A DNA stretch of 64,000 bases, from sequence record MG748548; one strand, given 5' to 3'. Shown here piece by piece: positions 185 to 62,961 of this stretch. The stretch's first letter is position 1. Every line of letters starts with the position of its first letter. The stretch comes from Escherichia phage EP335. A program made the position numbers and the translations under genes. Below the pieces are notes generated by a model that was not told the DNA's origin, ran no database searches, and saw only the letters and a program-made list of their open reading frames with translations.

Positions 185-2374
185 ATGTCTAGAGAATTAA
201 TGCCCAAATCTGGCATAATGATGCCTCATGTTGTTATTAACCGAGATGCTGCGGTGGTGGGTGTCTCAACTGTTGATGGTGTTGCTGGTGCGGTTAATCT
301 GACTGATAAATATTTACAGAAAACAGATGCAGCTTCTACTTATTTAACTAGAGCCGAAGGTGCTACTAAAACTTTTGTAACAGATGCAATTGGACCTATC
401 ATGTCTGGTGCACTGTTTAAAGATGACCCTGTTGTTGCAAATGATGTAGCTTTCCGTTCAGGTGGAGCTAATGGTGTAGAATCTGTGGATATGATTAAAG
501 TCACTCCAGAGAATACTATCAAACTTGGTAGTTATGCATCTTCTGTTCAGGGAGTAGAGATTCACTCAGCTGGTCGTCTTCAGGTTGTTGATCAGAATGA
601 CAGTGGTGTAGAAACTAAATACCCTGTTTATTCTAAACGGTATCGTCCTGAGATTGAAGATTTACCTTTTGCTGCAATTGGGTCTTATGTTAAGGATTCT
701 AAAGGTCGTACTATTGGTGTTACTCGTACTGGTATCAACTCTGATATCAAACAGCTTACACAGAAAGTCACATTTACTCAGCCTGTAACTGTAGCAGATG
801 GTGTTGGGGACTACGATGCTGTAACAATGAGGCAGCTGCGTAATAGTGGTGGTGGCTCTGGTGGTCCTACCATGAGTGGTATTTCTAACTTTGGTATTGG
901 TGATTTTCACCTACGTGACAGTCGTGCTTTCATCCCCGCTTTTGAGGTAGTCTCTGACGGGCAGCTTTTGAATCGCGCTGACTACCCTGATTTATGGGCT
1001 TATGCTCAACTCTTAACTCCAATCAGTGACGCTGCTTGGTTGGCGGATGCACAGCAGAGAGGTAAATACTCTACTGGTGATGGTACAACCACTTTCAGGG
1101 TTCCGGATAGAAACGGCGTACAAGCAGGATCTCTTAAAGAACTGTTTGCCCGTGGTGACGGTGGTAATTCTTCTAATAACGGTATGATGTATGATGCAGC
1201 TCTTCCTAATATCGTGGGCTATACCGCACATACTCTGCTAACAGCGTCTAGCTCTCAAGGACAGGTGGCAACTGATGGAGCTTTCACTTCAACCACATCA
1301 ACCCAAGGTGTATGGCCTGTTAGTGGGGGGGGTGGTCTTTATACTAACATTCGTTTTGATGCTAATCAATCTGATCCTACCTATGGTAGATATGGAATTA
1401 CATCAAACGTAATACCTCGTAACTTTATAGGTGTTTGGACTATTCGTGCGCATGGTGGTTTTACTGCTGCTAATACTTCTTGGTCTGTTATTGATAGTGA
1501 CTCGACAGAGCCTGCATCCGGAACAGTTGTTAGGGGCGGTAGTGTCAAATCTGAATACAAGATTGGTACAAGCCCAAAATATCAAGCATATCTTCAGGCA
1601 TATGGGAAAATTGGTGGGTTAGCAATTGACCGAGGTGCAGTTCTATCAAACGGGGTACAGGAGTGGTTCTTTAATCAAGATGGGACTTTGTATTTCCCAG
1701 ACGCAGAGACGCAAATTGGTACATTAAGGTCTGATGGCGCGTTACATATTAGCGCATACGTCAGGCCAAAGGATGTCGTTGTAAATCCATTAAACTCTGT
1801 TGGGGTTGCAGCTTCAGAAAGAAACGCCGTCAGAATGATCAACTACGCAAATGTACCAGAAGGGGGTTATATTAACTCAGTTGGTGGCGACTGGTATGAT
1901 GGGAATTGGATGCTCGGCGGAGTCAGAAGTGGCACAACAGCATTGGACCGTGCGCAACTTAACATTTTGAATGGCATTGGCAGCAGCGCCTCGTATATAT
2001 TTGGCTCTGATGGTATAGCAAGATGTCAAGAATGGAGAAGTACATCTGATGAACGGATTAAAAGCAATATTGAGCGTATCAGTGATCCACTCTCCAAGAT
2101 GAAAAACATCAAGGGGGTTACGTGGGTTCTGGAAACCAACGGCTCGGTAGGGTACGGATTCATCGCACAGGACGTAGAGAAGGATTTTCCTGAAGCTGTA
2201 TCAGAAATAAAGGCTTCACCAGTCACTCTGCGAGACGGGTCTGTGTTGGACAATGTAAAGTCAGTTAACACCTCGGGAGTTGCTGCTGCGTTGCACCATG
2301 AAGCTATTCTTGAACTTATGAAGCAGGTTGAAGATCTTAAGAAAGAGGTGTCAGAGCTTAAGTCTAGTAAGTAA
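185..2374 (+). CDS. Tail fibre protein with phage tail-collar domain and C-terminal intramolecular chaperone (peptidase S74-like) domain
   Basis: AAGGAG at 174-179 then ATG at 185 (the track start at 152 lies inside the hairpin). Collar-like motif DYPDLWAYAQ...GDGTTTFRVPDRNG; C-terminal TSDERIKSNIERI...GVTWVLETNG...GFIAQDVEKDFPEAV typical of self-cleaving tail-fibre chaperone domains. Confidence 0.85.
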   Translation: MSRELMPKSGIMMPHVVINRDAAVVGVSTVDGVAGAVNLTDKYLQKTDAASTYLTRAEGATKTFVTDAIGPIMSGALFKDDPVVANDVAFRSGGANGVESVDMIKVTPENTIKLGSYASSVQGVEIHSAGRLQVVDQNDSGVETKYPVYSKRYRPEIEDLPFAAIGSYVKDSKGRTIGVTRTGINSDIKQLTQKVTFTQPVTVADGVGDYDAVTMRQLRNSGGGSGGPTMSGISNFGIGDFHLRDSRAFIPAFEVVSDGQLLNRADYPDLWAYAQLLTPISDAAWLADAQQRGKYSTGDGTTTFRVPDRNGVQAGSLKELFARGDGGNSSNNGMMYDAALPNIVGYTAHTLLTASSSQGQVATDGAFTSTTSTQGVWPVSGGGGLYTNIRFDANQSDPTYGRYGITSNVIPRNFIGVWTIRAHGGFTAANTSWSVIDSDSTEPASGTVVRGGSVKSEYKIGTSPKYQAYLQAYGKIGGLAIDRGAVLSNGVQEWFFNQDGTLYFPDAETQIGTLRSDGALHISAYVRPKDVVVNPLNSVGVAASERNAVRMINYANVPEGGYINSVGGDWYDGNWMLGGVRSGTTALDRAQLNILNGIGSSASYIFGSDGIARCQEWRSTSDERIKSNIERISDPLSKMKNIKGVTWVLETNGSVGYGFIAQDVEKDFPEAVSEIKASPVTLRDGSVLDNVKSVNTSGVAAALHHEAILELMKQVEDLKKEVSELKSSK
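2048..2371 (+). other. Intramolecular chaperone / autoproteolytic domain of the tail fibre (predicted cleavage before DERIK)
   Basis: Last ~108 codons carry the S/DERxK motif and conserved downstream block seen in T5 pb1 and K1F endosialidase C-terminal chaperone domains. Confidence 0.65.
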
Positions 2375-2380
2375 TCTAGT

Positions 2381-2400
2381 AGCCCCTTCGGGGGCTTTAG
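2381..2400 (+). terminator. Hairpin terminator (AGCCCC-TTCG-GGGGCT)
   Basis: Perfect stem with TTCG tetraloop 7 nt after the tail-fibre stop; short T tract. Confidence 0.5.
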
Positions 2401-2468
2401 TAGTAAGTATGTTCAAGAAGTAATGAAACTACTATATCACAAAAGGAATACACATAGGAGATACGAAG

Positions 2469-2687
2469 ATGAAAATGATGAAACAAATCAGTTATGGGTT
2501 AGCTTGTGTTGCTACCGGTTTTGCTGTGTCAGTGGCTGTTCCTGTTAACGCAGTGCATCCTCTGGTAACACACCCTGCACCAATTGAGAAGTTAAGTGCA
2601 TCTTGTAAGCAGCGTACAATTCAGAATAATCTTGTGGTTATTTGTCCAGACTCTGATTCTAGTGCTCTGAGAAACATGCTTCAGTAA
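2469..2687 (+). CDS. Small protein with N-terminal signal peptide / TM segment (possible holin, antiholin or lipoprotein)
   Basis: AGGAGA RBS; 20-residue hydrophobic N-terminus with L-A-C lipobox-like triplet; sits immediately upstream of the endolysin. Confidence 0.5.
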   Translation: MKMMKQISYGLACVATGFAVSVAVPVNAVHPLVTHPAPIEKLSASCKQRTIQNNLVVICPDSDSSALRNMLQ

Positions 2688-2718
2688 TTTAGGGCTAACT
2701 GGGAAGGGAGGTGAAAAA

Positions 2719-3210
2719 ATGGATAATGTCGCATTGCCACCGATACAGCTGAGCTTAAGCCCAGACGGGATGGAATTCATCATGAAGCATGAAGGTATGA
2801 GAACTCGTGCTTACCAAGATTCCGCAGGTATCTGGACGATATGTGTTGGGGCTACGCGCGATATGAATGGGTATCCAGTTAGACAGGGATTAACGTATTC
2901 TATAGAGGATTGTCTAGCTCTGCTAGATAGAGACACACAAGACTCTGTTCGTGCCACTCAGAAAAATATTAGGGTTCCTTTGTTAACCCACGAGTTTGAT
3001 GCTCTCACCTCTTTCAACTTCAACGTTGGTGGTGGGGCTTTATCAACTTCTAAACTTAGGAAAGTTATTAACGGAGATGTAAAGGGTGATGTTTATTCTG
3101 AGTTCCTCCGTTGGGATAAAATTACAGTTAAAGGTAAGAAGATTAGCAGTCCGGGATTGAAGAATCGTAGAACTGCTGAAGCTGACCTTTACACTGAAGG
3201 TAAATACTAA
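2719..3210 (+). CDS. Endolysin, glycoside hydrolase family 24 lysozyme
   Basis: GGAGG RBS; motif HEGMRTRAYQDSAGIWTICVGAT matches the E-x8-D-x5-T catalytic region of P22 gp19 / lambda R-type lysozymes. Confidence 0.85.
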   Translation: MDNVALPPIQLSLSPDGMEFIMKHEGMRTRAYQDSAGIWTICVGATRDMNGYPVRQGLTYSIEDCLALLDRDTQDSVRATQKNIRVPLLTHEFDALTSFNFNVGGGALSTSKLRKVINGDVKGDVYSEFLRWDKITVKGKKISSPGLKNRRTAEADLYTEGKY

Positions 3211-3221
3211 AAGGAGTTGTC

Positions 3222-4025
3222 ATGGCAGTAGAAACTAATGCTAACACAATTAATGACCTCAACCCCCTGTACCCTCGTGACAGGGATTATCTTTACGAAG
3301 GGGCGGCTCAGATTCGCCTCGTTAAACAAGTATTGCAGAACACTTTTCCAAACGTAACAGAACCAGTTCAATTGGACTCAGACTCTCTCAATATTCTGGC
3401 TAGCAAAGTTACTTTTACTGGTGACTCTATGGATGTTGGTGGGTTGATGATCAAGAATGCAACTCCGGGTACAGGTGATAGAGATGTTGTCACTAAAGGC
3501 CAGATGGAAGCTTTCATGCAGAACTGGATGGCTAACAAAGTATTCAGGATTGGTTCTTACTATATCACTGAAGAAGATATTAACCCCGGTGATAGTTCTT
3601 CTCTTGGTTTTGGCTCTTGGGCTAAAGTGACTGGTGTTATTATGGGTTCTGGTGTAGTAAACCCTGACGGTTCTGTTCCTAATGCTCAGCGTGTTGAATT
3701 CCAAGCAGGTGGTACAGGTGGTCGTGTGTTTAACACTATCCGTGCTGATAACCTACCTCTTGTAACTATCAATGGCTCAAGCTTCTCTGTATCTAGTAAC
3801 ACTCACGGTCACAACATGGTGTTTGGTCGTGGTGACGCAAGTGGTCATAACAGCTCCCCTAACTGGTATAGTCCGGGTGGTGGTTATAGTCAGAGAACTG
3901 AAAATGATACACACTCTCACACAATCTCTGGTTCTGTATCTTTTGGTCGTGATGATGTTTCTCGTCAGCCAATTAATACTTTACCACCTTTCCGATCTGC
4001 ACACATCTGGAGACGTATTAGCTAA
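3222..4025 (+). CDS. Tail fibre / receptor-binding-like protein with His-x-His motifs
   Basis: Position in the tail module; C-terminal THGHN, SGHN, THSHT motifs resemble metal-binding HxH repeats of fibre tips. Confidence 0.55.
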   Translation: MAVETNANTINDLNPLYPRDRDYLYEGAAQIRLVKQVLQNTFPNVTEPVQLDSDSLNILASKVTFTGDSMDVGGLMIKNATPGTGDRDVVTKGQMEAFMQNWMANKVFRIGSYYITEEDINPGDSSSLGFGSWAKVTGVIMGSGVVNPDGSVPNAQRVEFQAGGTGGRVFNTIRADNLPLVTINGSSFSVSSNTHGHNMVFGRGDASGHNSSPNWYSPGGGYSQRTENDTHSHTISGSVSFGRDDVSRQPINTLPPFRSAHIWRRIS

Positions 4026-58469: not shown

Positions 58470-58569
58470 CTTTGATTAGATTCTTTGATTAGCACACTGA
58501 ATCAATGCACTGATAAAAGAAAAGGCGCTACCCGTTAAGATAGCGCCTTATGTTGTTTATATTGTGGTG

Positions 58570-59481
58570 TTATGCTGCATTTTGACGTGCTGCCATAATC
58601 TCAGCCGCTTTCCGCAAGATCTCTTCTTGCTCAGCCGCCGCCGCTTGTTCTGTACGGATTGCAACCGTTGAAGAGATACGACCGCGCAGATTATCTAACT
58701 TCTCCTGCATTTTTGTGATGGTTGATTCCATTTCATCGGCATAAGAATCCAGTGATTCCAATTCCTTGCTTGATGCGTTCATCAAGTAGTCATCAGAGAT
58801 CGCTACGGTTGAAGCCGTTACTTTCTTAATCAGTGAATCGAAGGACTTCTTAACCTTGCCCACTTCTTCACTAAGGGCAATAGTGTTATCACTGGTAGCG
58901 CCGTTACGTTCATCAGCCAATAATTTGGCTTCAATACGGATTGCATTTAAGCGTTCTACCAGATTGTAAATATCCTGATTAAAATCTTCTTTAACTTTCG
59001 CCGGGATTTGCAGGTGTGCCGCTACGTTATCGTTACAACCTTTGAAGAAGTTAGGATTATCTACTTCGATTTCATCACCTTTGGCGAATTTTTCGAAAGA
59101 GTTAGACCAACGAGCGCGGTTTTGTTCCATTTTCGCCTTAATTTGCGCTTCTTTCGCATCTTCTTTCGCTTTCGCTTCACCTTCCAGATTAATCCACTTT
59201 TTACGACCATTTGCCGCATCAGTGTTATATTTGATAGGAGTTAAGAAAGTAATTGCAGTGGCGATCACATCCATATCGCGGAAACGTTCGGTTAACAGGA
59301 AGTCAACCGCCGCCTGCAATACGTCCAACTTCTTACCGTTGCTACGGAAGTGCTGCAAATGTCCTAACAGGAAGTTAGAAACATCTTGTTTGATCGCCGC
59401 GTTGTTGCTACGAATGTTGTTAGCCAGTGCATTAAAACCAGATTCGTTAACCAGATTAAAGATTTTAGCCATGATATTCAC
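58570..59481 (-). CDS. Hypothetical protein (first gene leftward of the long non-coding region)
   Basis: 303-aa helical, Ala/Lys/Glu-rich ORF; its 5' third (GCCGCCGCCGC) is more GC-rich than the surroundings. Confidence 0.5.
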   Translation of the reverse strand: MNIMAKIFNLVNESGFNALANNIRSNNAAIKQDVSNFLLGHLQHFRSNGKKLDVLQAAVDFLLTERFRDMDVIATAITFLTPIKYNTDAANGRKKWINLEGEAKAKEDAKEAQIKAKMEQNRARWSNSFEKFAKGDEIEVDNPNFFKGCNDNVAAHLQIPAKVKEDFNQDIYNLVERLNAIRIEAKLLADERNGATSDNTIALSEEVGKVKKSFDSLIKKVTASTVAISDDYLMNASSKELESLDSYADEMESTITKMQEKLDNLRGRISSTVAIRTEQAAAAEQEEILRKAAEIMAARQNAA

Positions 59482-60391
59482 CTTTCAATTGTAAGGGCGC
59501 TATTGCCCCGCTCTCTATGAGCTTTTTTAAGTCACTATTGACTTATCGATAACCACTCATTTTTAAGTAGTTATTGATAAGTAAGGGAGTCTTATCAGGA
59601 ATTAACCTTGCTCCCTTATTATCTGCGATGTTTCATCCGGTATCTTTAATTAGTCGCTATAAACTAAGCCGACCTGATAGCGATGATCAATCATCACAAT
59701 AAGGCAGTGTGCCCGACTCTAATTAGTTACTTTATTGTAACCGTCGGTAATATCGTTTACTCTGTTTTCGCTCCCGCCTATCCTTTTGTACCGACTCTTA
59801 ATCGCTAACCATCGCCCACTACGGGAGGTTATTACGAGAAAGTCATCAGCCGTCTAATACATTGACGTTTTATATCTTTCAGCAGGTTTACTACATAAAC
59901 TGACTATGTACGCCATCAATAGTGACCTCAAATCATTCACTTCGTAAACGTTCACACTAAACCTTATTGTTAAATAGCAATTTGCTACTCTTTAACCACT
60001 CCCCGCCGCTCGCAATTGAGCTTGTATTCGTCGGAATTGCCTACCCTGATTAACTTCTTTCACCGTAGCGCCTTGTTAGCGATGACCGCCGCTACCCTTA
60101 ACCGTGGGCGATTAGCTTAAGTCTTTGCGTGCACTCGATGAATCTGCTTATCAGTGGTGACGTTTCCAGTAAGGGATTGTAAGATTGTTTACTCTGATAA
60201 CTTAGAGAATCTTACACCGTTTTATCTGGTATGCTATCCGATGGTTATTATCATCTAGCATATTCAACCGATATAGGAGAATGTTTAAATTGTTAAAGAG
60301 CGGTAAATCTATCAGTGTGCTTTCTCACACTATGCAACTGTTAGCCGTTGTTACGCTGTTCACTTCGCGGTGATTTGCTTAGTGAGTGCTC

Positions 60392-60420
60392 ATTATGAAT
60401 CATGTTGTTTTAGCTGTCAA
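60392..60420 (-). promoter_or_regulatory. Sigma-70-like promoter candidate (TTGACA-17 bp-CATAAT) directing leftward transcription
   Basis: Reverse complement of 60415-60420 is TTGACA and of 60392-60397 is CATAAT, with exactly 17 bp between. Confidence 0.4.
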
Positions 60421-61347
60421 CCGCTTTTTAATCTTTTTCGTCGTTCCCTTTATTGGGAGGAGATATCAATCAGCTATATTTGATTGAAGATTAAGCGGTA
60501 ATGCTTAACTTATGATTCATATTTTTAAAGAGCGGTTACTACACTTTCAGCTTAACACATCGTGTTAGCTTGTCAACCTCTTTTTTATCATCTTCTTTTA
60601 ATTCCGTTCCCTTATCTCGCGTGAATCTTTGCGAAAGGGCAAGACGATAAGTCTGATTTGTCTTTTAGGAATCTAGTGCGCTTTCAAGCATCGACCATTT
60701 GAAAGTATCGAACAAATGAGGCTTATTTTGTTGCTCATCGTCCGCCTGTTTCACGTATGAATCAGGAATCAATTCTAGCGGTCAACTAAGCGCCTTATAG
60801 TAATGACGTTACCGCCACCTGTAAGACAAATCATATTTTTAAAGAGCGTAGCACTTCGTTGTGCGTCTTACCATCGGTATTCCTACCGCTCCCCCGTTGA
60901 AGCCTTTTACCGTGATGCTAATCACCTATCAGGGAGTCTTGTTGCTTGTTGCTTACTGCTTACTACGGGATTCATATTAATATACAGGAAAATTATGTCA
61001 ATACCCTTTTTTCAAATTATTTTACATCTCATTGATTTATAAAGGTTTTTATTTTACTTCACTCTGGAACTAGCAACGATTTATAGGCTGGCAGTGTTAT
61101 AAAGTAACATAAAAAGTATCATAATCGTGACGTAATAGACCACGCGCGGGATAACATACGCAAAACAGGCTGTAAAGCAGTTTCTAACGTCCTGTAAGCC
61201 ATTCTAACGAGCTAAAAGGGGGCAAGGCATACAATCACCCTATAAATGAAAAAAGCCTCATAGAGAGGCTTATAGGAAGGATTTAAAGTATTAGATAGAT
61301 TATGACCATAGGCATGACTACGGCACAATACAGGAGAAAGATTAATC

Positions 61348-61725
61348 CTATGGATTTACACATTGACCGTTACCGGATGCCACTTCATTCATAGACTCAT
61401 CGAACAAGGTTAGGGATGAGCGTAACAGGTGATCAATCATGATTTGCTTGCCAGTGGTTTCATTTACCAGTTGAATAGTTTTATCGAATGATAATACCTG
61501 ATCGAAATCACCAACGTGTAAAATAATAACCTTCGGTGATTGTTTACCAGTATCATAATTTTCTATGAGATAGGTACATTGCAAGCCTTCGATAGTCTTA
61601 GGTGTGAATGTTGCAGCCTTAACACTACCCATAGACGATAGGAGAACACCCAGCAGGAGAACAACCAGAAAGAAGCCTACGAACACTTTTACCACAAATT
61701 TGATAATACCCATGATGATAATCAC
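61348..61725 (-). CDS. Membrane-anchored protein
   Basis: Strongly hydrophobic N-terminus FVVKVFVGFFLVVLLLGVLL followed by a soluble domain. Confidence 0.45.
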   Translation of the reverse strand: MIIIMGIIKFVVKVFVGFFLVVLLLGVLLSSMGSVKAATFTPKTIEGLQCTYLIENYDTGKQSPKVIILHVGDFDQVLSFDKTIQLVNETTGKQIMIDHLLRSSLTLFDESMNEVASGNGQCVNP

Positions 61726-61807
61726 CTATAGTTAGAGAATGTAAGAATAAAGCATATCAGCGACGAATAACGCCACTGTAGCAACGAACAAGCAACGCCA
61801 AAAATAA

Positions 61808-62089
61808 TCATGAATCATCGTTGCCATCCTCGCCAAAAAAGGATATACTGATTTGTTCCACTTCTTCCAGCGACAACAAAATCCCACGTTGGGCTAAATA
61901 CTTCCCAACAGTCAGATAGTCCTGCACTAAACAGACAACAGGAAAGCGGATAGTCTGTATCTCACCTTTAGAAAGAAAAGACAAATAACCAACGTCACTT
62001 GACTCATCAAAGGATAAAGTAACGCCACCGTAATTATGCGTATCAATTAACGCGATAGTTTCATTTCCCATAATGTTTCCAATCCTCAT
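61808..62089 (-). CDS. Hypothetical protein
   Basis: 93-aa ORF coupled to the upstream gene. Confidence 0.45.
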   Translation of the reverse strand: MRIGNIMGNETIALIDTHNYGGVTLSFDESSDVGYLSFLSKGEIQTIRFPVVCLVQDYLTVGKYLAQRGILLSLEEVEQISISFFGEDGNDDS

Positions 62090-62961
62090 TATTGTTTAGC
62101 ACTGATACAATCAGCCAGATTAAAATGAATGGTGTACATCGCATTATTTTCGCTATTGTAAACCGTGGTAGCGAGCATTGATTCATTCATCGGGCCATAG
62201 CTGACCAGATTAGTGACAGCTTTCGCATGGCTGTAACGTTGTACAGTACCAAATGTGACTAGTTCGGGATCATTATCAGTACGCTTTAATAACAGATCTT
62301 CATTGCCCTGATTATCTAGTGTTTTGGTACTAACGACCAGACCATCACGGGAAACATTACTAAATTTAACCTTTAAAACGACCTGATTGGTGTCACTATC
62401 CGCACCATTACAGACTAGCCATTGCTTAGGTGCAACCTTAACGAATAGATTAGCGGCATCACTAGCAACAGGAGCAGGACTAGCAATAGCGTTATCAGAG
62501 ATAGCACCAACGACAGCACTGACACCGATAGCTGCAACCAGTGCATAACTTGCAAGGTTGACAGACTTCATAATCTTACCTGCAATAGAAGGCTTGCTAT
62601 CTTTCTTCTTCATGTTCTGGATAGCTTCAACCATAGCAGACAAGCGGGATAATAATGCGTTAACATCACGGCAAGATTCAGGCCAATCGTTTTGAGTCCA
62701 ACTATCTAAGTTAGCCTGAATGTAACAGTTAATAGCGTCCTGCATATCGGTAAAACCATTCTCTTTGAATGACTCACTATCTTCACACTGTAAAGCGTTC
62801 GCAGCAGAATCGATGATAAGACAAGCCAGAATAATAGAGTTTTTAAAGCTGGTACGGGCTTGCTGGTTATCCATCCATTGAGTAGGCACACCAACGGAAA
62901 GACCTAACGGGGAAAGTTTTTCATTTGCTTGATTCAGATGTTTGATTGCTAACTTTGACAT
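62089..62961 (-). CDS. Hypothetical protein (most upstream gene of the leftward block in this window)
   Basis: 290-aa ORF directly left of the non-coding region 62962-63830. Confidence 0.5.
   Translation of the reverse strand: MSKLAIKHLNQANEKLSPLGLSVGVPTQWMDNQQARTSFKNSIILACLIIDSAANALQCEDSESFKENGFTDMQDAINCYIQANLDSWTQNDWPESCRDVNALLSRLSAMVEAIQNMKKKDSKPSIAGKIMKSVNLASYALVAAIGVSAVVGAISDNAIASPAPVASDAANLFVKVAPKQWLVCNGADSDTNQVVLKVKFSNVSRDGLVVSTKTLDNQGNEDLLLKRTDNDPELVTFGTVQRYSHAKAVTNLVSYGPMNESMLATTVYNSENNAMYTIHFNLADCISAKQ

What the first reader, a model, noticed from the sequence alone, without database searches (positions are those of the whole stretch)
59482..61347. 1.87-kb region without ORFs containing three copies of a TTTTAAAGAGCG motif and a consensus sigma-70-like promoter
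No ORF of 60 aa or more occurs on either strand across 1866 bp, exceptional for this genome. It contains three direct copies of a ~12-18-nt motif (60293-60303 TTAAAGAGCGG; 60524-60538 and 60833-60848 sharing TCATATTTTTAAAGAGCG) spaced ~240 and ~310 bp apart, and a leftward TTGACA-N17-CATAAT promoter candidate at 60392-60420. It could be the early promoter/regulatory region, a replication origin, a cluster of non-coding RNA genes or a genome-terminus region.
Basis: seen in the sequence. Interest (0 to 1): 0.55.

Follow-up and report, generated by a model that had tools for sequence, protein, structure and literature searches.

The report
Phage early promoters, boxA, structured RNA
The "empty" 1.9 kb of this phiEco32-like coliphage is its main early promoter cluster. 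Each host-type promoter is followed by a copy of the ribosomal-RNA antitermination signal boxA, and the cluster drives an undescribed, roughly 0.8-kb, intricately folded non-coding RNA ahead of an early gene.

Summary
The window is a phiEco32-like (Kuravirus) coliphage. The finding covers the spacer between the homologues of phiEco32 genes 125 and 124, both on the minus strand.

The observation mostly holds, and three points are settled:
- **Repeat motif.** Read on the transcribed strand it is CGCTCTTTAA(A/C)AAT. This is a perfect match to the gamma-proteobacterial boxA consensus GYTCTTTAANA and up to 19/19 identical to the E. coli rrn leader. Across 27 related spacers there are 106 matches on the transcribed strand and none on the other. 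Each promoter is followed by one.
- **Structured RNA.** The roughly 810 nt between the last boxA and gene 124 is non-coding but evolves about 2.4 times slower than 4-fold sites. It folds into a multi-domain structure with 75 covarying pairs. That structure also holds in five held-out divergent relatives. It matches no Rfam family.

Best reading: an rRNA-operon-like unit. Strong promoters and boxA (NusB/S10 loading) would give Rho-resistant transcription of a long untranslated structured RNA that continues into gene 124. The RNA's own function is unknown. Nothing supports an origin or a genome terminus.

The parts
61243..61271 (-). Intrinsic terminator ending the upstream early unit (gene 128-125 homologues): stem-loop AAGCCTCTCTATGAGGCTT followed by a T-run
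   Evidence: SU10 annotates a terminator at the same place, and the SU10 paper describes a 'putative terminator downstream of CDS121'.
60974..61001 (-). P1, a sigma-70-type promoter: TTGACA-16-TAATAT, with an A/T-rich upstream stretch
   Evidence: It is present in 9 of 22 relatives. The module is absent or replaced in the others.
60837..60847 (-). boxA copy C (GCTCTTTAAAA; extended CGCTCTTTAAAAAT), about +120 from the P1 start
   Evidence: Perfect match to GYTCTTTAANA. Its flanks look like a fusion of two phiEco32 copies, with the promoter between them deleted.
60549..60576 (-). P2, a sigma-70-type promoter: TTGACA-16-TAAGCT
   Evidence: Homologous to the SU10 published early promoter '73668 ttgacaagctaacacgatgtgttaagctg'.
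60523..60533 (-). boxA copy B (GCTCTTTAAAA), about +9 from the P2 start
60392..60420 (-). P3, a sigma-70-type promoter: TTGACA-17-CATAAT.
   Evidence: 11 of 12 consensus positions. Homologous to the SU10 published promoter '73511 ttgacagcgaaaacaacatgattcataatgagcaca'. Conserved in nearly all relatives.
60314..60331 (-). boxB-like hairpin AGTGTG-AGAAAG-CACACT, 12 nt 5' of boxA copy A
   Evidence: Compensatory changes in relatives: AACGTG/CACGTT and AGCGTG/CACGCT. It has the same order as the rrn leader, where the hairpin precedes boxA.
60291..60301 (-). boxA copy A (GCTCTTTAACA; GCTCTTTAACAATTTA is 16/16 identical to the E. coli rrnH leader), about +85 from the P3 start
   Evidence: It is invariant in all 26 aligned phages except at the consensus 'N' position.
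59991..60289 (-). Structured RNA, domain I. It is closed by a long-range helix (60289-60276 with 60004-59991) and contains covarying helices 4, 7, 8, 9, 10, 12 and 15.
59972..59990 (-). Conserved hairpin GT(A/G)GC-AAAT-TGCTAT, leading into the invariant TTTAACAATAAGG. This is the boxA-like fourth repeat copy, which carries A instead of C at consensus position 4.
   Evidence: family D1; helix 16.
59696..59970 (-). Structured RNA, domain II. It is closed by helices 17 and 18 (59970-59953 with 59711-59696). In inner helix 22 (59886-59881 with 59778-59773) all six pairs covary.
59494..59695 (-). Structured RNA, 3' series of hairpins (helices 30, 31, 33-38). Several have multiple compensatory changes, for example 59617-59611 with 59589-59583.
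58570..59472 (-). Gene 124 homologue: a 300-aa, mostly helical protein of unknown function (phrog_13018). It lies immediately downstream of the RNA and has the same phylogenetic distribution.
58522..58549 (-). Strong intrinsic terminator after gene 124 (12-bp stem followed by a T-run). It probably marks the end of the P1-P3 primary transcript, or is a partial read-through point.
   Evidence: A terminator is annotated at this place in WFI101126, 4E8 and SU7.

Best explanation
The region is a leftward, rRNA-operon-like early transcription unit.

1. Host sigma-70 RNA polymerase starts at three tandem near-consensus promoters (P1-P3). This is shown by sequence, and P2 and P3 match published promoter predictions.
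2. Within 9-120 nt of each start the nascent RNA carries an rrn-type boxA, and copy A is preceded by a boxB-like hairpin. I infer that NusB-S10 binds these sites. Together with NusA, NusG and SuhB it would convert the polymerase into a Rho-resistant, fast elongation complex that also chaperones RNA folding, as on rRNA operons and CRISPR arrays.
3. This complex would transcribe about 810 nt of untranslated RNA. That RNA folds into a conserved three-part structure (shown by covariation). Without such protection a long untranslated transcript is a typical Rho target.
4. Transcription then continues into gene 124 and reaches the terminator at 58522-58549.

The RNA belongs to an RNA family not found in Rfam. 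What it does is not known. My working guess is that it acts as an RNA early in infection. It could act in cis as the leader of the gene-124 mRNA, or after processing, possibly together with gp124, with which it is always found.
For: Identity and promoters:
- The window is 91% identical to phiEco32 at 72714-74783, the spacer between genes 124 and 125.
- P2 and P3 match the SU10 published early promoters. P1 and P3 are the two best sigma-70 matches in the 4-kb scan.

boxA:
- The published consensus is GYTCTTTAANA. The window has three perfect matches in the region, all on the minus strand, and only one elsewhere in 64 kb.
- Identity to the E. coli rrnH leader is 16/16 in the window and 19/19 in Bas88.
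- In 27 spacers (67 kb) there are 106 matches on the transcribed strand and 0 on the opposite strand. The extended logo is C-GCTCTTTAA-N-AAT.
- The copies alternate with promoters in every phage examined.
- Copy A is invariant in 26 phages except at the consensus N position. The hairpin upstream of it covaries.

Structured RNA:
- Leader divergence averages 14%, against 34% at 4-fold sites of gene 124.
- RNAalifold predicts 237 pairs, of which 75 show compensatory changes.
- 98.9% of cells are paired. The slid controls give only 9-11 covarying pairs, and 0 of 500 shuffles reach the observed values.
- In five held-out divergent contigs 72-81% of the pairs are kept, against 31-50% when slid. Each contig has 47-55 compensatory pairs, against 11-27.
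- G-U cells number 620 against 15 A-C cells, and the transcribed strand folds better than its complement.
- The RNA has a G-over-C skew of +0.14.

Non-coding.

Role of boxA on long untranslated RNAs: Stringer 2020 and Baniulyte 2017.
Against: - No experiment is available here. Nus binding, the transcription start sites, the RNA ends and RNA abundance are all inferred.
- No consistent boxC-like GU-rich element follows the copies.
- From my own knowledge, rrn-type antitermination acts mainly on Rho and only weakly on intrinsic terminators. It therefore does not by itself explain read-through into the rest of the early operon.
- The structure was predicted by RNAalifold on sequence-based alignments. 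Two predicted long-range helices (boxA with 59649-59643, and 59641-59632 with 59460-59450) have no covariation and are probably wrong.
- The two primary phiEco32 papers (Savalia 2008, Pavlova 2012) could not be read. Part of this may already be described there.
Confidence: 0.72

Rival explanations
1. Transcription-primed replication origin, of the T7 primary-origin or ColE1 RNA II type. The tandem promoters would make a structured RNA that forms an R-loop and primes leading-strand synthesis.
For: - The region has tandem strong promoters followed by a long untranslated, structure-constrained and somewhat G-rich RNA.
- From my own knowledge, ColE1 RNA II is also a folded primer RNA of about 550 nt.
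- The phiEco32 origin is not described in the papers I could read.
Against: - There is no AT-rich unwinding element downstream. GC content is 0.38-0.44 across the leader.
- There are no DnaA or IHF sites and no clustered iterons.
- The GC skew only follows gene orientation and has no inflection here.
- The RNA runs straight into a ribosome-binding site and gene 124.
- boxA is a transcription-elongation signal, not a replication signal.
Confidence: 0.08
2. Nus-factor decoy. The many boxA copies on very abundant early RNA would mainly serve to titrate NusB/S10/SuhB away from host rRNA operons, helping host shut-off. They would not serve to antiterminate phage transcription.
For: - There are 3-6 consensus boxA copies per phage behind consensus promoters.
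- phiEco32 is known to shut off host transcription.
Against: - Every copy sits just downstream of a promoter and upstream of long untranslated RNA. This is the geometry of cis antitermination.
- The most conserved copy (A) is the one directly in front of the structured RNA.
- A decoy would not need strict pairing with promoters.
Confidence: 0.08
3. The leader is simply a very long regulatory 5' UTR of gene 124, controlling translation or mRNA stability (riboswitch-, thermosensor- or RNase-processing-type control). It would have no function of its own.
For: - The RNA is contiguous with the gene-124 ribosome-binding site, with no terminator between them.
- RNA and gene are always found together.
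- A hairpin lies just 5' of the ribosome-binding site, at 59509-59494.
Against: - About 810 nt, with three domains and long-range covarying helices, is far more than known cis-regulatory leaders need.
- No Rfam riboswitch or leader family matches.
- Many unpaired stretches are invariant across divergent relatives. This suggests tertiary contacts or partner binding.
Confidence: 0.12

Closest known systems
E. coli rRNA operon leader (P1-P2 tandem promoters, boxB-boxA-boxC, rrn antitermination complex of NusA/B/E/G, SuhB and S4)
   Same: - Tandem strong sigma-70 promoters.
- boxA within tens of nucleotides of the start, identical over 16-19 nt to the rrnH leader.
- A hairpin precedes boxA.
- A long, untranslated, highly structured RNA follows.
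   Different: - The product is a phage RNA with no similarity to rRNA.
- There are three to six promoter-boxA modules instead of one leader boxA plus one spacer boxA.
- There is no clear boxC.
- A protein gene follows on the same transcript.
boxA upstream of CRISPR arrays (Stringer et al. 2020) and in the suhB 5' UTR (Baniulyte et al. 2017)
   Same: A consensus boxA is placed in front of an unusually long untranslated transcript to block Rho.
   Different: Those are single copies in bacterial chromosomes. Here the element is carried in multiple copies by a virulent phage.
Lambda nutL/nutR with N protein
   Same: A phage uses boxA and host Nus factors for processive antitermination of early transcripts (abstracts).
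   Different: - From my own knowledge, lambda boxA is the weaker CGCTCTTA, it lies 5' of boxB, and it needs the phage N protein.
- Here the boxA is the full rrn type, the hairpin is 5' of boxA, and no N-like protein has been identified.
T7 early promoters A1, A2 and A3
   Same: Three tandem strong host-polymerase promoters near the genome end drive the first wave of phage transcription (from my own knowledge).
   Different: As far as I know, T7 has no boxA and no long structured untranslated RNA behind these promoters.
Large ornate phage-associated ncRNAs (GOLLD, ROOL)
   Same: They are of comparable size (about 0.6-0.8 kb), have a multi-domain covarying structure, are encoded by phages, and have no known function (from my own knowledge).
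   Different: - There is no match to these Rfam families or to any other.
- This RNA is restricted to E. coli Gordonclarkvirinae and close relatives.
- It lies in the 5' leader of a protein gene and carries boxA.

Membership tests
boxA (NusB-NusE binding site, gamma-proteobacterial type) | Sequence matches the consensus GYTCTTTAANA (Baniulyte 2017) | tested here: met
   Three perfect matches at 60301->60291, 60533->60523 and 60847->60837. There are 106 matches in 27 related spacers.
boxA (NusB-NusE binding site, gamma-proteobacterial type) | Lies on the transcribed strand, downstream of a promoter, so that it appears in the nascent RNA | tested here: met
   All copies are on the strand of the flanking genes, with 0 of 106 on the opposite strand. 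Each is 9-120 nt downstream of a TTGACA-type promoter.
boxA (NusB-NusE binding site, gamma-proteobacterial type) | Binds NusB-S10 and recruits SuhB/NusA/NusG; mutation of the core positions abolishes the effect | not testable with these tools
   This needs ChIP, EMSA and mutant reporters.
rrn-type antiterminator (boxB-boxA-boxC) | Hairpin (boxB) immediately 5' of boxA | tested here: met
   For copy A only: the hairpin at 60331->60314 has compensatory changes. Copy B lies too close to the P2 start for a hairpin in P2 transcripts.
rrn-type antiterminator (boxB-boxA-boxC) | GU-rich boxC (UGUGUGGG-like) about 10-15 nt 3' of boxA | tested here: not met
   No such element follows copies A or B. Copy C has only a weak GGTGGCGG, while the PJNS034 copy does have a GU-rich stretch. 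From my own knowledge, boxA alone is reported to be sufficient.
Sigma-70 early promoters of phiEco32-like phages | -35 and -10 hexamers with 16-18 nt spacing; homologous to the promoters reported for phiEco32 and SU10 | tested here: met
   Activity in vivo was not tested here.
Any described RNA family (Rfam 15) | Covariance-model match | tested here: not met
   No hit at E <= 1 on 58500-62500, either strand. ARAGORN finds no tRNA or tmRNA here.
Structured non-coding RNA (general) | Compensatory base changes above controls, strand asymmetry of G-U pairs, and no coding signal | tested here: met
Replication origin | Initiator boxes or iterons, an AT-rich unwinding element, and a skew inflection | tested here: not met
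   Transcription-primed origins without such marks cannot be excluded by sequence alone.
Genome terminus / terminal repeat | Lies at the physical end of the virion DNA, within the direct terminal repeat | tested here: not met
   The homologous stretch is internal in phiEco32 (72796-74728 of 77554) and in SU10. SU10 has 193-bp terminal repeats at its ends.

The most novel reading that the evidence does not exclude
The roughly 0.8-kb leader is a new class of large, complex-folded phage RNA. The phage makes it in quantity by borrowing the host's rRNA transcription machinery (consensus promoters plus rrn-type boxA). It then acts in trans early in infection, for instance as a ribonucleoprotein with gp124 or as a decoy for a host RNA-binding factor or defence system. 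It would not be a mere mRNA leader.
Probability: 0.35. Interest if true: 0.85.

Novelty: new variant of a known kind. Interest (0 to 1): 0.72.

Why it matters
- Large RNAs with extensive covariation and no known function are rare, and they have repeatedly led to new biochemistry. This one sits in an isolated, culturable coliphage family (the BASEL collection and phiEco32 itself), so it can be studied directly.
- I found no report of rrn-type boxA elements in a virulent phage. If they work as inferred, these phages take over the host's rRNA elongation machinery as well as its sigma factor. That would explain how an 0.8-1.5 kb untranslated early transcript escapes Rho.
- It gives a testable prediction: these phages should depend on host NusB, NusE and SuhB.
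- It corrects annotation practice. Several GenBank records place spurious ORFs in this spacer.

Tried and rejected
- **Known RNA families.** Rfam at a permissive threshold found nothing. ARAGORN found nothing in the region.
- **Coding.** Rejected. There is no codon periodicity and no conserved ORF. The 79-aa + strand ORF is broken in relatives.
- **Origin or terminus.** There are no DnaA or IHF sites and no gp36-type (TAATGTATA) promoters in the region, and the skew shows no inflection.
- **Iterons or a protein-binding array.** The repeat spacing of 232-323 bp and the absolute strand bias fit an RNA signal, not DNA iterons.
- **Similarity to E. coli DNA.** None was detectable by blastn.
- **gp124 function.**
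  - Pfam gave only sub-threshold coiled-coil-like hits, and PHROGs gave a family of unknown function.
  - The AlphaFold model had a mean pLDDT of 58, too poor for a fold search.
- **Wider distribution.**
  - tblastn of gp124 against the phage records found only the same 96 records, and the metagenome scan found only close relatives.
  - The right-end leader of Salmonella phage 7-11 has no boxA.
  - An IMG/VR pattern scan for boxA-N-GTTGACA gave only 5 hits, probably by chance, because the pattern was too strict.
- **Literature.**
  - The two primary phiEco32 papers are not held.
  - One literature search was wasted on a badly posed min_terms query.
Full report
**Identity of the window**

The stretch 59400-61400 is 91% identical to Escherichia phage phiEco32 at 72714-74783. 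About 96 Kuravirus-like coliphage records hold it. In phiEco32 and SU10 the matching stretch is the unannotated spacer between genes 124 and 125 (SU10 genes 120 and 121). Both genes lie on the minus strand, and the spacer ends about 2.8 kb from the right end of the linear genome.

**Checking the observation**

- TTAAAGAGCG occurs three times exactly, and only in this region of the 64 kb.
- The 18-mer TCATATTTTTAAAGAGCG lies at 60517-60534 and 60831-60848.
- TTGACA-17-CATAAT lies at 60420->60392 and is the best sigma-70 match in a 4-kb scan.
- A 79-aa ORF does exist at 60803-61042 on the plus strand, but stops and frameshifts break it in close relatives.
- Gene 124 starts at the ATG at 59472, as annotated in all relatives, not at the GTG at 59481.
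- Variable alignment columns in the downstream ~840 nt (boxA copy A to the gene-124 start) are spread 126/125/125 over the three phases. No ORF is conserved there. The upstream part was not tested in this way, but it varies by whole-module insertions and deletions. So the region is non-coding.

**What was already known**

[quoted passage not shown] It also states that there are three sigma-70 promoters in the spacer between genes 120 and 121. Its Table S2 lists 'ttgacaagctaacacgatgtgttaagctg' and 'ttgacagcgaaaacaacatgattcataatgagcaca'. So 'early promoter region' is correct and published. A further consensus-like promoter, P1 (61001->60974, TTGACA-16-TAATAT), and the terminator at 61271->61253 complete the picture.

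**The repeat is boxA**

Read on the transcribed (minus) strand, the motif is CGCTCTTTAA(A/C)AAT.

- Baniulyte et al. 2017 derived the gamma-proteobacterial boxA consensus GYTCTTTAANA. The window has three perfect matches here, all on the minus strand, and one other in 64 kb.
- The E. coli rrnH leader reads TGCTCTTTAACAATTTATCAG. Window copy A shares GCTCTTTAACAATTTA (16/16) with it, and phage Bas88 shares 19/19.
- In 23 related phages, three to six copies alternate with TTGACA-type promoters.
- In 27 spacers (67 kb) there are 106 consensus matches on the transcribed strand and none on the other.
- Copy A is invariant in 26 phages except at the consensus N position.
- Twelve nucleotides 5' of copy A lies a hairpin that keeps pairing through compensatory changes. 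This is the rrn order, with boxB before boxA.
- A boxC-like GU-rich element is not consistently present.

Each promoter start is followed by a boxA at about +120 (P1), +9 (P2) and +85 (P3).

The window lacks one promoter-boxA module that phiEco32 has. The flanks of copy C look like a fusion of two phiEco32 copies. This suggests that recombination between boxA repeats reshuffles the modules.

**The downstream 0.8 kb is a structured RNA**

The upstream half of the spacer (about 60600-61250) varies by whole-module insertions and deletions. The stretch from P2 to gene 124 is conserved in all relatives.

*Conservation.* Leader divergence from the window averages 14%, against 34% at 4-fold degenerate sites of the adjacent gene.

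*Consensus folding.* Sliding-window consensus folding gives structure conservation indices of 0.7-0.9. The energies are better on the transcribed strand than on its complement.

*Covariation in the 23-phage alignment A1.*
- RNAalifold predicts 237 pairs, 75 of them with compensatory double changes.
- 98.9% of cells are paired.
- The controls with slid partners give only 9-11 covarying pairs.
- None of 500 shuffles reaches the observed values.

*Long-range helices supported by covariation.* The helices listed here define the domains.
- 60289-60276 with 60004-59991.
- 60161-60131 with 60071-60039.
- 59957-59944 with 59760-59707.
- 59886-59881 with 59778-59773, where all six pairs covary.
- Together they define domain I (60289-59991), a hairpin (59990-59972), domain II (59970-59696) and a 3' hairpin series down to 59494.
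- Two predicted helices without covariation are probably artefacts: boxA with 59649-59643, and 59641-59632 with the start of the coding sequence.

*Strand.* G-U cells outnumber A-C cells 620 to 15. This points to the minus-strand RNA as the folded molecule.

*Independent test.*
- A protein search with gp124 found homologues at 67-70% identity, carried on contigs of up to 96 kb. Upstream of the gene these contigs have 1.4-3.4 kb without any called gene.
- They carry promoters and the same boxA (GCTCTTTAACAATTTAAAC) at -870 to -919. Their leader is 64-76% identical to the window's.
- The structure derived only from the 23 close phages holds in these five held-out sequences. Between 72% and 81% of pairs are kept, against 31-50% when slid. 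Each sequence has 47-55 compensatory pairs, against 11-27.

*Known families.* No Rfam family matches at E <= 1, and ARAGORN finds nothing. E. coli genomes hold nothing similar.

**How it most likely works**

Shown by sequence:
- consensus sigma-70 promoters;
- consensus boxA in the nascent RNA;
- a long, untranslated, structured RNA running without a terminator into the ribosome-binding site of gene 124;
- a strong terminator after gene 124, at 58549->58522.

Inferred from established knowledge of rrn operons and of boxA at CRISPR arrays and suhB:
- NusB-S10 binds boxA.
- It nucleates a Nus/SuhB-modified elongation complex that resists Rho.
- Rho would otherwise terminate a long untranslated transcript.
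- From my own knowledge, the same complex speeds elongation and assists co-transcriptional folding on rRNA.

The RNA's own role is unknown. RNA and gp124 have the same narrow distribution. A 65.7-kb phage, PJNS034, shares the promoter-boxA array but has neither the RNA nor gp124. So the RNA and gp124 form one unit, and the promoter-boxA cassette is a separable module.

gp124 has no informative family. Its AlphaFold model is too poor for fold comparison, with a pLDDT of 58.

**Rivals**

- **Transcription-primed origin.** It cannot be strictly excluded, but it has no positive support: no AT-rich element, no initiator sites and no skew inflection.
- **Nus-factor decoy.** It fits the copy number but not the strict promoter-boxA-untranslated-RNA geometry.
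- **Plain regulatory 5' UTR.** It is possible, but about 810 nt in three domains, with many invariant unpaired stretches, exceeds known leaders.
- **Genome terminus.** It is refuted by the position in complete genomes.

**Novelty**

- The promoters are known.
- I found no paper that links boxA with phiEco32-like phages, or that describes rrn-type boxA in a virulent phage.
- The papers on these phages that I could read (SU10, 7-11, BASEL) do not mention a structured RNA or a non-coding region here.
- The two primary phiEco32 papers could not be read, so priority is uncertain.
- I rate the whole as a new variant of a known kind. It is rrn-style antitermination carried by a virulent phage, in front of a new large structured RNA family.

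Noticed in passing
window 61348-61713 (-): The gene-125 homologue is labelled 'terminase' in many records. The label rests only on phrog_13168. The 121-aa protein has no Pfam hit and begins with a long hydrophobic stretch, so it looks like a small membrane or secreted protein and the label is probably wrong.
   Followed up: partly
L026 (Escherichia phage PJNS034, PP391266.1) 1873-3694: A different 65.7-kb coliphage has its own 1.8-kb annotation-free divergent spacer. On the early-gene strand it carries a promoter-boxA-promoter-boxA-promoter array and shares about 190 nt with window 60661-60849. It lacks the leader RNA and gp124. The promoter-boxA cassette is therefore mobile between phage groups.
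   Followed up: partly
window 60831-60848 compared with L001 (phiEco32): The window has three promoter-boxA modules where phiEco32 has four. boxA copy C has the 5' flank of one phiEco32 copy and the 3' flank of the next. This looks like a deletion by recombination between boxA repeats.
   Followed up: partly
L036 983-4000 and L038 563-4000 (Logan contigs of 96 kb and 87 kb): Divergent relatives (gp124 about 70% identical) have 3.0-3.4 kb without any called gene upstream of the gp124 homologue. Only the last ~0.9 kb corresponds to the RNA described here. The content of the rest was not examined.
   Followed up: no
window 59966-59978 (-): An invariant boxA-like sequence, GCTATTTAACAAT (A instead of C at consensus position 4), lies inside the RNA between domains I and II. 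Part of it is paired in a hairpin. It could be a degenerate second boxA or a purely structural element.
   Followed up: no
window 60803-61042 (+); also annotated CDSs in Paul, MN05, NJ01, SU7 and CHD5UKE1: Several GenBank records annotate short hypothetical proteins inside the spacer, on either strand; one is even called 'cathepsin L-like'. They disagree with one another, and the window's 79-aa ORF is not conserved, so these look like over-annotation.
   Followed up: partly
L045 (Salmonella phage 7-11) 4865-5917: Phage 7-11 also has about 1 kb without genes upstream of its first early gene, but no boxA consensus on the transcribed strand. Its authors note that its antitermination strategy is still undefined.
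   Followed up: partly
L027 (Escherichia phage EC22.5-2, OR845139.1) 2501-2598: An unverified 42-kb record shares 99 nt (80% identity) with window 60849-60947, the stretch between P1 and boxA copy C. It has TTGACA promoters nearby but no boxA consensus.
   Followed up: no
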